From the IMG/VR virus record IMGVR_UViG_3300009709_000001, positions 128,001 to 192,000 of that record: 64,000 bases of DNA; one strand, given 5' to 3'. Shown here one piece after another: positions 429-45,020 of this stretch. Position 1 is the first letter of the stretch. Each line of letters begins with the position of its first letter. Below the pieces are notes generated by a model, which ran no database searches, was not told the origin of the DNA, and saw only the letters and a program-made list of their open reading frames with translations. The translations under genes and the position numbers were made by a program. The stretch comes from a virus. Taxonomy: Duplodnaviria > Heunggongvirae > Uroviricota > Caudoviricetes.

Positions 429-547
429 CAGAATCATTTTTTATTGCCGGTTGCTCTGCCAACTGAGCTACGTCACCGAAGCGACGGCAGGACTCGAACC
501 TGCGACCCACTGGTTGTTTCAATTTTTATTGCGGAACTGATTCTTTA
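429..547 (-). ncRNA. scaffold RNA with circularly permuted tRNA core (T arm, UUCG-closed acceptor, D arm); YrlA/Y-RNA-like
   Basis: TAAAGAATCAGTTCCGCAA...GCAGG-TTCGAGT-CCTGC CGTCGC-TTCG-GTGACG TA GCTC-AGTTGGCA-GAGC...TGATTCTG. Confidence 0.75.
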
Positions 548-30524: not shown

Positions 30525-30533
30525 AAAATAAAT

Positions 30534-30863
30534 TAACTGTCCTGTAAGCGGAGTTCTGTGCCCTTGCGGGTGACAATCATTCATCTACAGTTACCTGTCC
30601 TCCCCGGCTTCGCTTCCGGATCATAGGTGCCACAACCCGTTCCCTCGGCGAGCAGCGTCAGCGAGAACTGTTTGTGTTGCTGCGGAGTCGTTGTGGTGCG
30701 AACGTGGTATGAACGTATAGTCTAGGGTGACACGCACCTGGGACCATTATATCCTTTTTCTTAAGGCGCTCTATAGCGTATACCACTCCCACAGAGCGAC
30801 AAGCCCTGCTCTGTGCAGCCCCGACTTTCCTCTAGCTTGCGCCAGCGATTGTCCGGACAATTA
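30534..30863 (-). ncRNA. rnpB: RNase P RNA
   Basis: GAGGAAAGTCGGGGC near the 5' end; TAGATGAATGATTGTC and ACAGAACTCCGCTTA near the 3' end; terminal P1 pairing. Confidence 0.9.
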
Positions 30864-30867
30864 AACC

Positions 30868-31457: not shown

Positions 31458-31529
31458 CAGAATGCGTTTCTTTATGGTCAAATTGGAAGTTTGATTTTCT
31501 TGATTATTTTTGCTGAATACATTCTTTAG
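31458..31529 (-). ncRNA. CAGCAA-scaffold RNA displaying a Gly(TCC) anticodon stem-loop
   Basis: TAAAGAATGTATTCAGCAA...TCAAA-CTTCCAA-TTTGA...CGCATTCTG. Confidence 0.7.
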
Positions 31530-31535
31530 AAACTC

Positions 31536-31621
31536 TGGTGGGCATGGAAGGATTCGAACCTACTCACCCCGAGGGAACGGATTTACAGTCCGCCGCCGTT
31601 CACCGACTCGACAGCATGCCC
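31536..31621 (-). tRNA. tRNA-Tyr(GTA)
   Basis: Loop CTGTAAA, long variable arm. Confidence 0.9.
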
Positions 31622-39383: not shown

Positions 39384-39457
39384 TGGGTTGAACCGGGGAA
39401 TCGAACCCTCGCCTACTGTTTCACAGACAGTCTTGCTACCACTACACTAGGAACAAC
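39384..39457 (-). tRNA. tRNA-His(GTG)
   Basis: Loop CTGTGAA, C73. Confidence 0.85.
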
Positions 39458-39471
39458 ATCGAAATTAAAAA

Positions 39472-39592
39472 CAGGTTCGCAATTTATATCCTACCATTAG
39501 ACGACAGTAGCGACCAACTCTACCGCTGGGATTCGAACCCAGATCTTCTTTTTTACAGAAAGATTATTATTTATTGCTGAAACGAACCTAAA
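39472..39592 (-). ncRNA. CAGCAA-scaffold RNA containing a complete circularly permuted tRNA (anticodon GTA)
   Basis: AGGTTCGTTTCAGCAA...TCTTT-CTGTAAA-AAAGA AGAT CTGGG-TTCGAAT-CCCAG CGGTAG-loop-CTACTG TCGTCTAATGGTAGGAT...CGAACCTG. Confidence 0.75.
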
Positions 39593-39604
39593 GTCGAAAT
39601 AAGT

Positions 39605-39711
39605 CAGGATGGGTGACTGATGGCCGGGAGTCGAACCCTATGTCACTGGCCCCAATGGCCTGGCCCGCAAAGTTTTGGCTGCGTGAATTGCTTGCTGCAA
39701 TCATCCTTTAG
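39605..39711 (-). ncRNA. CAGCAA-scaffold RNA with a T-loop hairpin
   Basis: TAAAGGATGATTGCAGCAA...GGG-TTCGACT-CCC...CATCCTG. Confidence 0.65.
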
Positions 39712-39716
39712 AAATT

Positions 39717-39793
39717 TGGTTCCCATGGTCGGATTCGAACCGACACTGAACAGTGTTTGAAACTGCTGACTCTACCGATTGGCCTACATGGGC
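39717..39793 (-). tRNA. tRNA-Leu(CAA), short variable loop
   Basis: Loop TTCAAAC. Confidence 0.8.
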
Positions 39794-42120: not shown

Positions 42121-42218
42121 AAATGCCTTTCTGTGTGTACGTCACAATTAACGTTTACAGGACTAACTATATAAGTATGTCAAATTTTTGTCAACTGATT
42201 TTTATCAATTGATTTTTA

Positions 42219-42340
42219 TGGTTCCGCCCCAGGGAATCGAACCCCGTCTACTTCCTTATCATGGAATTTGAATTTATTGCTGAACGTATCCTTGGCAGGA
42301 TCACCTCGTTTAAGCATGCTACCGTTACATCAAAGCGGAA
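42219..42340 (-). tRNA. tRNA(GAT)-like gene interrupted by a 47-nt CAGCAA-scaffold insert
   Basis: TCCGCTT-TGATGTAACGGTAGCATGCTT[insert 42265-42311]CC-ATGATAA-GGAAG...T arm...GGGCGGA-ACCA. Confidence 0.65.
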
Positions 42341-44598: not shown

Positions 44599-44657
44599 CA
44601 GAGTACGCTTTTTTCACCAATTGAAAGTAGTTTAAATTTGCTGAATGTACTCTTTAG
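44599..44657 (-). ncRNA. CAGCAA-scaffold RNA with a Glu(TTC)-like loop
   Basis: TAAAGAGTACATTCAGCAA...ACTA-CTTTCAAT-TGGT...GTACTCTG. Confidence 0.65.
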
Positions 44658-44962: not shown

Positions 44963-45020
44963 CAGTGTTCTTATTTTCAATTACAAGTTGAATTTTTAAT
45001 TTGCTGAACGAACACTTTAG
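44963..45020 (-). ncRNA. CAGCAA-scaffold RNA displaying a Thr(TGT) anticodon stem-loop
   Basis: TAAAGTGTTCGTTCAGCAA...TTCAA-CTTGTAA-TTGAA...GAACACTG. Confidence 0.7.

What the first reader, a model, noticed from the sequence alone, without database searches (positions are those of the whole stretch)
39472..39592. Complete circularly permuted tRNA (anticodon arm first, D arm last) inside the scaffold
Seen: the order is anticodon arm TCTTT-CTGTAAA-AAAGA (GTA, Tyr), variable AGAT, T arm CTGGG-TTCGAAT-CCCAG, acceptor 3' strand CGGTAG, 9-nt linker, acceptor 5' strand CTACTG, then D arm TCGTCTAATGGTAGGAT. All four arms are present, with the break at about position 26/27 and no CCA. Established: permuted tRNA genes are known in some algae and archaea, and YrlA lacks an anticodon arm. 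Inference: this is either an unchargeable full-shape Tyr decoy or a precursor that is ligated and re-cut, since the phage has an RNA ligase and RNase P RNA.
Basis: partly seen in the sequence, partly recalled or inferred. Interest (0 to 1): 0.8.

Follow-up and report, generated by a model that had tools for sequence, protein, structure and literature searches.

The report
Permuted tRNA-shaped phage Y-like RNA
This is a real, conserved phage gene for a small RNA that folds into a whole tRNA shape in rearranged order. It is clamped by a short "handle" that travels with a Ro60-like protein gene, so it is most likely that protein's partner RNA and not a working or decaying tyrosine tRNA.

Summary
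On the minus strand, 39473-39589 holds a 7-bp closing stem, UUUCAGCAA, an anticodon arm, a T arm, a loop-closed 7-position acceptor stem and a D arm.

- **Family:** a covariance model finds 55 strong relatives in viral contigs. All five helices covary: 97% of cells are paired and 22 of 27 pairs show double changes.
- **tRNA shape:** when the order is restored at position 26/27, ARAGORN calls a 70-73 nt tRNA in 50 of 50 distinct members.
- **Not a tRNA-Tyr:** base 35 is the most variable unpaired position of the whole RNA, while C32, U33, A37 and A38 are nearly fixed. The same body carries Tyr, Phe, Ser and Cys triplets. The gene has no CCA, although 42 of 44 neighbouring tRNAs encode it.
- **New here:** in this clade the acceptor cap loop pairs with the 5' leader, with compensatory changes.
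- **Partner protein:** the phage has no TROVE gene. It has a DUF2828/DUF7788 protein whose predicted fold best matches Ro60. That gene was found in 12 of 12 records of 88 kb or more that carry this RNA, and handle RNAs sit beside it in 8 of 9 cultured phages.

Best reading: a Y-RNA-like partner RNA with a complete tRNA mimic as cargo. The scan has noted this handle family before on other DNA. I found it in neither Rfam nor the papers searched.

The parts
39592..39596 (-). 5' leader segment CGACU, proposed to pair with the acceptor cap (GGUCG, 39511-39515)
   Evidence: Across the family, 33 of 48 members have at least 5 contiguous Watson-Crick pairs between leader and cap, against 1.9 in shuffles (maximum 5 in 500). 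Compensatory types are GACCA/TGGTC, ATACCA/TGGTAT, ATCCCA/TGGGAT, TACCTA/TAGGTA and GTTTTA/TAAAAC. In the window itself there are only 4 Watson-Crick pairs plus one G-U.
39583..39589 (-). closing stem, 5' strand AGGUUCG
   Evidence: Pairs with 39473-39479. Five of the six modelled pairs show double changes in 50 distinct relatives, and 98.7% of cells are paired.
39574..39582 (-). handle motif UUUCAGCAA, unpaired, next to the 5' strand of the closing stem
   Evidence: UUCAGCAA (the last eight bases of UUUCAGCAA) is invariant in the 32-sequence seed alignment; the first U is nearly invariant. Those seeds were collected with a pattern that contains TTCAGCAA, so the invariance is by construction. 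The same motif is found in the phage's other handle RNAs.
39564..39573 (-). A/U-rich 5' linker between the handle and the anticodon arm
   Evidence: Length and sequence vary among relatives.
39547..39563 (-). anticodon arm: 5-bp stem and 7-nt loop CUGUAAA (GUA at 39554-39556)
   Evidence: All 5 pairs show double changes. C32 is kept in 40/50, U33 in 49/50, A37 in 46/50 and A38 in 47/50, while base 35 has 1.94 bits of entropy.
39543..39546 (-). 4-nt variable region AGAU
   Evidence: Sequence. It is 4 nt in 49 of the 50 aligned relatives and 5 nt in one, L056.
39526..39542 (-). T arm CUGGG-UUCGAAU-CCCAG
   Evidence: 100% of cells are paired and 3 of 5 pairs show double changes. The canonical T loop was part of the collecting pattern.
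39519..39525 (-). acceptor stem, 3' strand CGGUAGA (A72 faces G1)
   Evidence: All 7 acceptor pairs covary, with 4-6 pair types each.
39512..39518 (-). cap loop GUUGGUC closing the acceptor stem; no CCA
   Evidence: TTGGTC-type cap in 34 of the 50 distinct members. It pairs with the leader.
39505..39511 (-). acceptor stem, 5' strand GCUACUG
39488..39504 (-). U8-C9 and D arm GUCU-AAUGGUA-GGAU
   Evidence: 100% of cells are paired. Two pairs show double changes and two vary on one side only. G18-G19 are present.
39480..39487 (-). A26 and an A-rich 3' linker
   Evidence: Taking one base as position 26 gives a tRNA call (printed span 1-71) on the 70-nt construct after re-permutation. Linker length varies.
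39472..39479 (-). closing stem, 3' strand CGAACCU, plus the conserved following G
   Evidence: The 3' flank begins with G in every relative listed, and with GTT in most.

Best explanation
The locus encodes a non-coding RNA of about 125 nt that belongs to a widespread phage family.

**Two modules**
1. A 'handle': a 7-bp terminal stem that starts with AG, three bases, then CAGCAA, and a 3' strand followed by G.
2. A cargo: here a complete tRNA fold written in circularly permuted order and opened at position 26/27.

**State of the tRNA-like part**
- The acceptor end is closed by a loop.
- In this clade that loop base-pairs with the 5' leader.
- The RNA as encoded therefore has no free CCA end, cannot be charged, and its RNase P site is buried.
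- The elbow and a canonical U-turn anticodon loop remain exposed.

**Proposed role**
By analogy with Y RNAs, especially YrlA, the handle most likely docks the phage's Ro60-fold protein (DUF2828/DUF7788). The tRNA-shaped cargo most likely brings that ring together with a tRNA-binding factor, or presents a tRNA look-alike to one.

**Shown:** the fold, its conservation, the covariation, the co-occurrence with the protein gene, and the protein's Ro60-like predicted fold.

**Inferred:** physical binding, the absence of processing, and the downstream effect.
For: **The RNA and its fold**
- The sequence is as described.
- At least 120 viral loci share handle plus T arm at the right spacing.
- Model R1 finds 55 strong members.
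- Covariation: 97.3% of cells are paired, against 40-54% when partners are slid. 22 of 27 pairs show double changes, and 0 of 500 shuffles reach the observed values.
- 50 of 50 re-permuted members are called as tRNAs by ARAGORN.
- Base 35 is the most variable unpaired column, while positions 32, 33, 37 and 38 are nearly fixed.
- Leader-cap pairing has five compensatory types.

**The partner protein**
- The genome has no TROVE match. It has a 469-aa DUF2828+DUF7788 protein.
- Its AlphaFold model has pLDDT 93 and pTM 0.92. The 12 best matches listed, ranks 1-13, are all Ro60 structures, at E 2e-9 to 4e-7 and TM 0.5-0.65.
- DUF7788 was found in 24 of 50 records that carry the RNA, in all 12 records of 88 kb or more with the CAGCAA handle, and in 3 of 3 complete ones. 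The baseline is 711 of 50,697 phage records.
- In 8 of 9 cultured phages from unrelated hosts, handle RNAs cluster beside that gene, within about 0.5 kb in seven of them.
- The 5' UTR of the phage's own DUF2828 gene holds a handle-like hairpin.

**Independent parallels**
- In Streptomyces phage Gilson the same four-arm permuted cargo, without CAGCAA, lies about 650 nt upstream of a true TROVE gene.
- YrlA sets the precedent: T arm, closed acceptor and D arm in this order (PMC4201824).
Against: - No expression, end-mapping or binding data exist for this RNA.
- In this genome the DUF2828 gene lies about 40 kb from the RNA. Adjacency is seen in relatives, not here.
- The handle differs from the Ro60-binding motif of known Y RNAs (GNCGAA / CGAA).
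- The YrlA model does not match this element at all.
- DUF2828 has no sequence-level match to TROVE.
- Large tRNA-rich phages may carry the protein more often than the 1.4% baseline, so the enrichment is overstated to an unknown degree.
- In the window itself the leader-cap pairing is only 4 Watson-Crick pairs plus one G-U.
- The alignment used for pair counts was fitted to the model structure.
Confidence: 0.62

Rival explanations
1. Two-piece tRNA mimic. RNase P (host, or the phage's own RNase P RNA-like gene) cuts in the cap loop at the 5' side of the acceptor stem, and CCA is added. This would give two base-paired fragments with a free and possibly chargeable acceptor end, still held on the handle. 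M. smegmatis YrlA and permuted two-piece tmRNA behave this way.
For: - The acceptor stem has seven positions, six of them paired in the window. A full 7-bp stem is the determinant named for RNase P cleavage of M. smegmatis YrlA, which is cut and CCA-tailed in vivo (PMC4201824).
- 8 of 84 family members have N-CCA directly after the 3' strand inside the cap, against 1.3 expected.
- The phage encodes an RNase P RNA-like gene and a permuted tmRNA.
Against: - The window's cap has no CCA.
- The cap loop is conserved and pairs with the leader, which would bury the cleavage site.
- The phage has no CCA-adding enzyme.
- G1 faces A72.
Confidence: 0.12
2. Free-standing decoy or bait for enzymes that recognise anticodon loops, such as host anticodon nucleases or modification enzymes, acting without the Ro60-like protein. 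The handle would serve only for stability or processing.
For: - The anticodon loop keeps the U-turn frame (C32, U33, A37, A38) while base 35 varies freely.
- The same genome has minimal handle RNAs whose only cargo is an anticodon-like hairpin, at 31459-31525 and 44964-45016.
Against: - In the main clade G34 and A36 are largely fixed (CUGNAAA), so the loop is not tuned to one tRNA species.
- The strong genomic linkage of the handle to the DUF2828 gene would be left unexplained.
Confidence: 0.1
3. A true permuted tRNA-Tyr gene, with ends joined by a ligase, handle removed and acceptor opened, as in red-algal permuted tRNA genes.
For: - All four arms and the canonical loop residues are present.
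- ARAGORN calls tRNA-Tyr after re-permutation.
- RtcB, an Rnl2-type ligase and an RNase P RNA-like gene are present.
Against: - The triplet is not conserved on a constant body.
- The 4-nt variable region does not fit a bacterial tRNA-Tyr or tRNA-Ser.
- A canonical tRNA-Tyr already exists in the window.
- 42 of 44 neighbouring tRNAs encode CCA and this one does not.
- Linker lengths at the junction vary.
- The handle also carries non-tRNA cargos.
- I saw no bulge-helix-bulge motif.
Confidence: 0.04
4. A processing or punctuation element of the polycistronic tRNA transcript, or a decaying remnant of a tandem tRNA duplication.
For: - It lies inside a tRNA array with no promoter or terminator of its own on the minus strand.
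- N-CCA relics in some caps suggest an origin from tandem tRNA genes.
Against: - Compensatory changes occur in all helices across 50 distinct sequences from many phage lineages.
- The handle, cap and leader are conserved.
- In other phages, units sit beside the protein gene outside tRNA arrays (Listeria, Staphylococcus and Campylobacter phages).
Confidence: 0.05

Closest known systems
YrlA-type bacterial and phage Y RNAs bound by Ro60/Rsr (Rfam RF02553; Chen et al. 2014, PMC4201824)
   Same: - A terminal stem with a conserved unpaired motif beside its 5' strand.
- A tRNA-like module in the order T arm, loop-closed acceptor stem, D arm.
- Encoded in genomes that have a Ro60-fold protein, and present in phages.
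- Relatives of this RNA score 27-39 bits on the YrlA model.
   Different: - YrlA has no anticodon arm. Its anticodon-stem equivalent leads into the Ro60 module.
- The motif is GNCGAA, not CAGCAA.
- The partner is a TROVE protein, not DUF2828/DUF7788.
- This element has no YrlA match at E up to 10.
- It has a leader-cap pairing.
Deinococcus radiodurans Yrn1 (PMC4201824)
   Same: A Y RNA modelled with a T arm and a possible 5-bp 'anticodon arm'.
   Different: - The Yrn1 loop has 6 nt.
- Its D arm is doubtful and the arm order differs.
- Here the loop has a canonical 7 nt with U33 and A37.
Thermus phage phiLo Ro60 with Yrl1/Yrl2 (PMC12135203; PDB 9KOP, 9L5Y)
   Same: - A phage-encoded Ro60 ring with phage-encoded partner RNAs.
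- 9KOP is the top structural match of this phage's protein.
   Different: - A TROVE-family protein.
- The RNAs are stem-bulge-stem with a CGAA motif and have no tRNA-shaped cargo.
Circularly permuted tRNA genes of Cyanidioschyzon merolae and other algae and archaea (my own knowledge: Soma et al. 2007)
   Same: The 3' half is encoded before the 5' half, with the acceptor strands joined by a short spacer.
   Different: - Those mature through a bulge-helix-bulge cut, a circular intermediate and RNase P/Z into working tRNAs with fixed anticodons.
- Here the termini form a conserved handle, the triplet drifts, and the cap is conserved.
Dictyostelium Class I RNAs (Rfam RF01414; Kjellin et al. 2021, PMC7919456)
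   Same: - Start (A)AG, a 6-bp terminal stem that covaries, a conserved roughly 11-nt unpaired motif beside the 5' strand, an end CUGU, and a variable middle.
- The Rfam consensus for that motif includes CAGCAA.
- Three handle RNAs of this phage hit the model at 22-26 bits.
   Different: - Eukaryotic, 42-65 nt, with no tRNA-like cargo.
- The known binder is an RRM protein.
- The scores are below the gathering score of 41.5, and 8 of 14 control genomes also give weak hits.
Bas63 gp130, a Ro60-like phage protein that counters the Ppl defence (PhageMaP preprint, PMC11482910)
   Same: - A Ro60-like gene directly upstream of the phage's tRNA genes.
- The authors guess that some of the 'tRNAs' are Y RNAs.
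- The Felixounavirus EC6 has four handle RNAs, one with a permuted tRNA cargo, in unannotated gaps right after its homologous gene.
   Different: - No RNA was identified or described there.
- I did not verify that gp130 itself is a DUF2828 member. That Bas63 is a Felixounavirus is from my own knowledge.

Membership tests
tRNA gene (Rfam RF00005 / ARAGORN) | contiguous cloverleaf in the canonical 5'-to-3' order | tested here: not met
   ARAGORN does not call it. The Rfam tRNA model does not call it at the gathering score or at E up to 10.
tRNA gene (Rfam RF00005 / ARAGORN) | four arms of canonical size with U8, G18-G19, a TTCGAAT T loop, U33 and A37 | tested here: met
   Sequence. ARAGORN of 50 re-permuted members. 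All arms covary.
tRNA gene (Rfam RF00005 / ARAGORN) | free acceptor end with CCA | tested here: not met
   The acceptor stem is closed by GUUGGUC with no CCA, while 42 of 44 canonical tRNAs in the window encode CCA. Later processing could not be tested.
tRNA gene (Rfam RF00005 / ARAGORN) | anticodon conserved among orthologues and matched to the body | tested here: not met
   18 different triplets occur among 50 members. Base 35 is the most variable unpaired column. There is no long variable arm although the triplets include Tyr and Ser.
Functional permuted tRNA genes (algal/archaeal type) | 3' half before 5' half, with the acceptor strands joined by a spacer | tested here: met
Functional permuted tRNA genes (algal/archaeal type) | bulge-helix-bulge motif at the termini for the splicing endonuclease | tested here: not met
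   The termini form a plain 7-bp helix followed by an unpaired UUUCAGCAA and A-rich linkers of variable length.
Functional permuted tRNA genes (algal/archaeal type) | a mature contiguous, chargeable tRNA is produced | not testable with these tools
   This needs tRNA-seq or RT-PCR across a 26/27 junction.
YrlA (Rfam RF02553) | score at or above the gathering score of 69 bits | tested here: not met
   No YrlA match on the element at E up to 10. Relatives score 27, 38 and 39 bits.
YrlA (Rfam RF02553) | T arm, closed acceptor stem and D arm, enclosed by a terminal stem | tested here: met
YrlA (Rfam RF02553) | GNCGAAN0-1G motif in the Ro60-binding module | tested here: not met
   The sequence has UUUCAGCAA instead. 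The YrlA motif is as given in PMC4201824.
YrlA (Rfam RF02553) | encoded next to a TROVE-domain Ro60 gene | tested here: not met
   No TROVE match in the 385-kb genome. A Ro60-fold DUF2828/DUF7788 gene lies about 40 kb away.
CAGCAA-handle RNAs (family defined within this scan; not in Rfam) | covarying 7-bp terminal stem starting with AG, three bases, CNGCAA, and a 3' strand followed by G | tested here: met
CAGCAA-handle RNAs (family defined within this scan; not in Rfam) | co-occurrence with a DUF2828/DUF7788 Ro60-fold gene | tested here: met
   Own genome. 12 of 12 records of 88 kb or more. Beside the gene in 8 of 9 cultured phages.
CAGCAA-handle RNAs (family defined within this scan; not in Rfam) | physical binding of the handle by that protein | not testable with these tools
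   This needs a pull-down or a gel shift.
Dictyostelium Class I RNA (Rfam RF01414) | score at or above the gathering score of 41.5 bits | tested here: not met
   21.9 bits on this element, and 24-26 bits on two minimal handle RNAs.

The most novel reading that the evidence does not exclude
The Ro60-like ring and its tRNA-shaped handle RNAs form a phage counter-defence particle. The sealed tRNA mimic would bait host enzymes that attack or inspect tRNAs, such as anticodon nucleases and related defence effectors, or it would recruit repair to damaged tRNAs. The free variation of base 35 on a fixed U-turn loop would be the trace of an arms race. The one experimental hint is that the Ro60-like gp130 of phage Bas63 counters the Ppl defence (PMC11482910).
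Probability: 0.2. Interest if true: 0.85.

Novelty: new variant of a known kind. Interest (0 to 1): 0.68.

Why it matters
Ro60 and Y RNAs are a long-studied but poorly understood RNA-surveillance particle. In bacteria the best-known Y RNA, YrlA, mimics only part of a tRNA.

- **A second branch:** here there is a different handle (CAGCAA), a different protein family (DUF2828/DUF7788, Ro60 fold) and a cargo that is a complete tRNA including the anticodon arm. It is found in viral contigs from many metagenomes and in cultured phages of E. coli, Bacillus, Listeria, Staphylococcus, Mycobacterium, Campylobacter, Rhizobium, Vibrio and Synechococcus.
- **Annotation:** these genes are unannotated, or mis-annotated as pseudo-tRNAs or tiny ORFs.
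- **Testability:** because Felix O1-type E. coli phages carry them, the function can be tested directly. A Ro60-like protein of such a phage already has an anti-defence phenotype.
- **tRNA surveys:** tRNA-like signals in phage tRNA arrays are not all tRNAs or pseudogenes.

Tried and rejected
- **Rfam** at the gathering score and at E up to 10 gave no meaningful family for the element. The only hits were a weak Class I RNA hit and T-loop fragments of tmRNA.
- **ARAGORN** on the native order gave no call.
- **Single-sequence folding** was not significant (z -1.9 for the element, -0.24 for the whole spacer). The minimum-free-energy fold replaces the acceptor and D arms with another hairpin, so I did not rely on it.
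- **blastn against cultured phages** found only one full-length relative (BUCT-ZZ01) and a partial match in Streptomyces phages. Pattern and covariance-model searches were needed.
- **The TROVE Pfam model** gave no match in the genome.
- **A sequence search of the DUF2828 protein against PDB chains** hit only designed repeat proteins, not Ro60. Only the fold search showed the Ro60 likeness.
- **A first, permissive handle scanner** gave 32 hits against 14 in shuffles in the window, so I dropped it for a stricter one.
- **The genome-contig scan with the protein** gave only two cyanobacterial loci. One has a plausible handle 0.8 kb downstream, which is too few for a test.
- **Stenotrophomonas phage DLP_6** showed no convincing handle within 6 kb of its gene.
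- **The supplement of Chen et al. 2014**, which lists the phages, is not held.
- **My guess at the Bas63 accession** (MZ501111) turned out to be Bas51, so I did not confirm that gp130 is a DUF2828 protein.
- **Rejected readings:** a Tyr-specific decoy, an intron-like removal of the handle, and a decaying duplicate. The reasons are given under the rivals.
Full report
**Context.** The window is part of a complete 385-kb virus record with direct terminal repeats.
- All 45 ARAGORN calls (44 tRNAs and a tmRNA) lie on the minus strand.
- Rfam finds a GOLLD RNA and a permuted tmRNA.
- The finding sits on the minus strand, in the 259-nt gap between tRNA-Leu(caa) at 39717-39793 and tRNA-His at 39385-39457.

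Read 5' to 3' on the minus strand, the element runs:
1. AGGUUCG
2. UUUCAGCAA
3. an A/U linker
4. UCUUU-CUGUAAA-AAAGA
5. AGAU
6. CUGGG-UUCGAAU-CCCAG
7. CGGUAGA
8. GUUGGUC
9. GCUACUG
10. UC
11. GUCU-AAUGGUA-GGAU
12. A, an A-rich linker, CGAACCU, then G

The first and last heptamers pair. Neither ARAGORN nor the Rfam tRNA model calls it in this order. Folding the single sequence is not informative: z is -1.9, and the lowest-energy fold swaps the acceptor and D arms for another hairpin.

**Relatives.**
- blastn against cultured phages found one full-length relative, in the tRNA array of Synechococcus phage BUCT-ZZ01. It is 76% identical, unannotated, and has a compensatory change in the closing stem (GGUUCG/CGAACC to GGUUUG/CAAACC).
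- It also found a partial match in Streptomyces phages of the Gilson group.
- A pattern joining TTCAGCAA to a canonical T loop at the right spacing hit at least 120 viral contigs.
- 124 of the 133 pattern matches had a 6-7-bp closing stem of differing sequence (124 of 133 at 6 or more of 7 pairs). The tRNA-part order was checked on the strong members.
- A covariance model built from 32 of them found 136 matches in about 0.9 Mb of fetched loci. 55 had E below 1e-11, and the window scored 112.5 bits.

**Covariation.** These figures come from the 50 distinct strong members.
- 97.3% of cells form a standard pair, against 75.5% in column shuffles and 40-54% when partners are slid by 1-3 columns.
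- 22 of 27 pairs show changes on both sides.
- No shuffle out of 500 reaches any observed measure.
- Every helix is supported:

| Helix | Pairs with double changes |
|---|---|
| closing stem | 5 of 6 |
| anticodon stem | 5 of 5 |
| T stem | 3 of 5 |
| acceptor hairpin | 7 of 7, with 4-6 pair types each |
| D stem | 2 of 4, the rest varying on one side |

The alignment was fitted to the model, which favours the structure, but the spread of pair types is too large for that to explain it.

**It is a complete tRNA in permuted order.** I cut each member at the cap and re-joined it after one base following the D stem (acceptor 5' strand, D arm, N26, anticodon arm, variable region, T arm, acceptor 3' strand). 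ARAGORN then called a 70-73-nt tRNA in 50 of 50 distinct members. The window's was called tRNA-Tyr (gta).

**It is not a tRNA-Tyr.** The called identities are Tyr, Phe, Ser, Cys, Arg, His, Leu, Thr, Ile, Met, Asn and an opal-reading UCA, often on nearly identical bodies.
- Column entropies show base 35 as the most variable unpaired position of the whole RNA: 1.94 bits overall and 1.88 bits within the 32-member main clade.
- By contrast C32 (40/50), U33 (49/50), A37 (46/50) and A38 (47/50) are nearly fixed.
- In the main clade the loop is CUGNAAA.
- The variable region is 4 nt in all but one of these (5 nt in L056), also where the triplet would mean Tyr or Ser. Bacterial tRNAs for those amino acids need a long variable arm (established knowledge). 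The phage's own tRNA-Tyr at 31536-31621 is 86 nt.
- 42 of the 44 canonical tRNAs in the window encode CCA. This element has none.

What is conserved is the shape of an anticodon loop, not a codon assignment.

The loop that closes the acceptor stem is not a passive linker.
- It is TTGGTC-like in 34 of the 50 distinct members.
- A conserved GACCA sits 2-3 nt upstream of the closing stem. The two are complementary.
- 33 of 48 members have at least 5 contiguous Watson-Crick pairs between the 15-nt leader and the cap, against a mean of 1.9 (maximum 5) in 500 leader shuffles.
- Where one side differs, the other follows: ATACCA/TGGTAT and ATACCAA/TTGGTAT, ATCCCA/TGGGAT, TACCTA/TAGGTA (phage BUCT-ZZ01) and GTTTTA/TAAAAC.
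- In the window the pairing is CGAC(U) with (G)GUCG, that is 4 Watson-Crick pairs plus a G-U. It uses G1, which faces A72. Alone it would not be significant.

I infer that the mature RNA keeps at least 9 nt of leader. I also infer that the closing stem lies alongside the acceptor arm, and that the acceptor end and the RNase P site are buried in this clade.

Other clades close the stem with GAAA, UUUU or AGAU loops. In 8 of 84 cases the cap begins with N-CCA, against 1.3 expected. That points to repeated origin from CCA-encoding tRNA genes, or to processing in those lineages.

**The partner protein.**
- The genome has no TROVE match.
- It encodes a 469-aa protein with DUF2828 and DUF7788 domains about 1 kb outside the window's start.
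- A sequence search of solved structures does not find Ro60.
- An AlphaFold model built on 104 diverse homologues reaches pLDDT 93 and pTM 0.92.
- The 12 best Foldseek matches listed (ranks 1-13) are all Ro60 structures: Thermus phage phiLo, Xenopus, human and Deinococcus Rsr, at E 2e-9 to 4e-7 and TM 0.5-0.65 over the full length. The next hits are vWA domains only.

**Linkage between the RNA and the protein gene.**
- DUF7788 was found in 24 of 50 records that carry the permuted-tRNA RNA.
- It was found in all 12 records of 88 kb or more with the CAGCAA handle, and in 3 of 3 complete ones. In several 5-7-kb fragments the gene lies 1-2 kb from the RNA.
- The baseline is 711 of 50,697 phage records. 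Large tRNA-rich phages surely exceed that baseline.
- In 8 of 9 cultured phages from unrelated hosts, one to seven units of 'stem, three bases, CAGCAA, cargo, stem' lie on the gene's strand, clustered within about 0.5 kb of it in seven phages. In Vibrio D482 the single unit lies about 4.3 kb upstream. Some have permuted-tRNA cargo: EC6, Bacillus PBC2 and Mycobacterium phage Clautastrophe. The count is 41 hits against 10 in shuffles, with the chance-like hits scattered inside coding regions.
- The 5' UTR of this phage's own gene has a handle-like hairpin, with CAGCAU in place of CAGCAA.

**An independent parallel.** In Streptomyces phage Gilson an RNA with the same four-arm permuted cargo lies about 650 nt upstream of a true TROVE gene (72.5 bits).
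- All its pairs are standard in the model alignment, and its loop is CUGUGAA.
- Its basal stem is different and has no CAGCAA.
- It scores 52.7 bits on my model and 27 bits on YrlA.

**What is known.**
- Chen et al. 2014 (PMC4201824) describe YrlA as mimicking the D arm, T arm and acceptor stem, with a GNCGAA motif. M. smegmatis YrlA, which has a 7-bp acceptor stem, is cut by RNase P and CCA-tailed in vivo. Yrn1 has at most a doubtful anticodon arm.
- Thermus phage Ro60 binds CGAA-motif RNAs (PMC12135203).
- A jumbo-phage survey mentions TROVE proteins with a tRNA-like partner in a few phages (PMC7824862).
- The PhageMaP preprint reports that the Ro60-like gp130 of Bas63 lies just before the tRNA genes and counters the Ppl defence. 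Its authors guess that some 'tRNAs' are Y RNAs (PMC11482910).
- A search for DUF2828 in the held papers gave nothing functional.
- The handle resembles Dictyostelium Class I RNAs in its start, stem, motif and end (PMC7919456), but scores stay below the Rfam cut-off.

I therefore file this as a new variant of the Ro60/Y-RNA kind and not as a member of YrlA. Earlier notes of this scan describe the same handle family on other genomes. I used them as leads and re-tested the claims here.

**Mechanism, with its limits.**
- Shown: the fold, its conservation, the sealed acceptor end, the drift of the triplet, the genomic linkage, and the Ro60-like predicted fold.
- Inferred: the handle docks the ring protein; the RNA stays intact; and the exposed elbow and anticodon loop engage a tRNA-binding factor as tether, gate or bait.
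- Not excluded: the two-piece route through RNase P. The phage has an RNase P RNA-like gene at window 30529-30864 (86 bits, cut-off 100), RtcB and an Rnl2-type ligase, but no CCA-adding enzyme.
- No promoter or terminator of its own was seen on the minus strand, so the RNA is probably cut out of the tRNA-array transcript.

Noticed in passing
window 30529-30864 (-): Full-length match to bacterial RNase P RNA class A at 86 bits (E 1.8e-27), below Rfam's gathering score of 100. It looks like a divergent phage-encoded RNase P RNA, and the gathering-score scan does not report it.
   Followed up: partly
window 39605-39707 (-): Directly upstream lies a second handle RNA (AGGAUG.., UUGCAGCAA, .. CAUCCUG) with a T-arm-like hairpin (GGGUUCGACUCCC) and other hairpins. 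It is separated from this RNA by 15 nt, and those 15 nt hold the leader segment.
   Followed up: partly
window 430-544 (-), 31459-31525 (-), 44600-44653 (-), 44964-45016 (-): Further handle RNAs of the same phage. One uses CCGCAA and carries a T arm, a closed acceptor stem and a D arm. Two carry only an anticodon-like hairpin, with loops CUUCCAA (31459-31525) and CUUGUAA (44964-45016). The cargo of 44600-44653 is not resolved.
   Followed up: partly
window 42174-42292 (-): My model matches a unit here (38.7 bits) in which handle, anticodon arm and T arm align but the acceptor and D part does not.
   Followed up: no
outside the window: G000:C1:127320-127355 (-), 5' UTR of the DUF2828 gene: A handle-like hairpin (AGAGUUA, AAA, CAGCAU, 12 nt, UAAUUCU, G) ends 8 nt before the ribosome-binding site. 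It is a possible site of autoregulation by the protein.
   Followed up: no
L002:975-1130 (Streptomyces phage Gilson, NC_048742): An unannotated RNA with a complete permuted tRNA cargo (loop CUGUGAA) on a long Y-RNA-type stem lies 650 nt upstream of a true TROVE Ro60 gene. A repeat of its 5' stem sequence lies about 90 nt further upstream. Known YrlA RNAs are described as lacking an anticodon arm.
   Followed up: partly
L132:5754-6522 (E. coli phage EC6, NC_027369): Four unannotated handle RNAs, three minimal and one with a permuted tRNA, lie in gaps of the tRNA array just after the DUF2828-type 'RNA-binding protein' gene of a Felix O1-type phage. This makes it a convenient laboratory model.
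   Followed up: partly
L140:7490-7697 (Staphylococcus phage S-CoN_Ph10) and L137:3989-4216 (Bacillus phage PBC2): In the Staphylococcus phage, the first and third of three handle RNAs overlap tiny annotated 'hypothetical protein' CDSs. In the Bacillus phage, a permuted-tRNA handle RNA lies next to a feature annotated as a pseudo-tRNA.
   Followed up: no
family-wide (loci L025, L035, L036, L058, L061, L063, L106, L119): In 8 of 84 members the cap of the closed acceptor stem begins with N-CCA at the exact tRNA position, against 1.3 expected. This is either a relic of origin from CCA-encoding tRNA genes or a sign that some lineages are opened by RNase P.
   Followed up: partly
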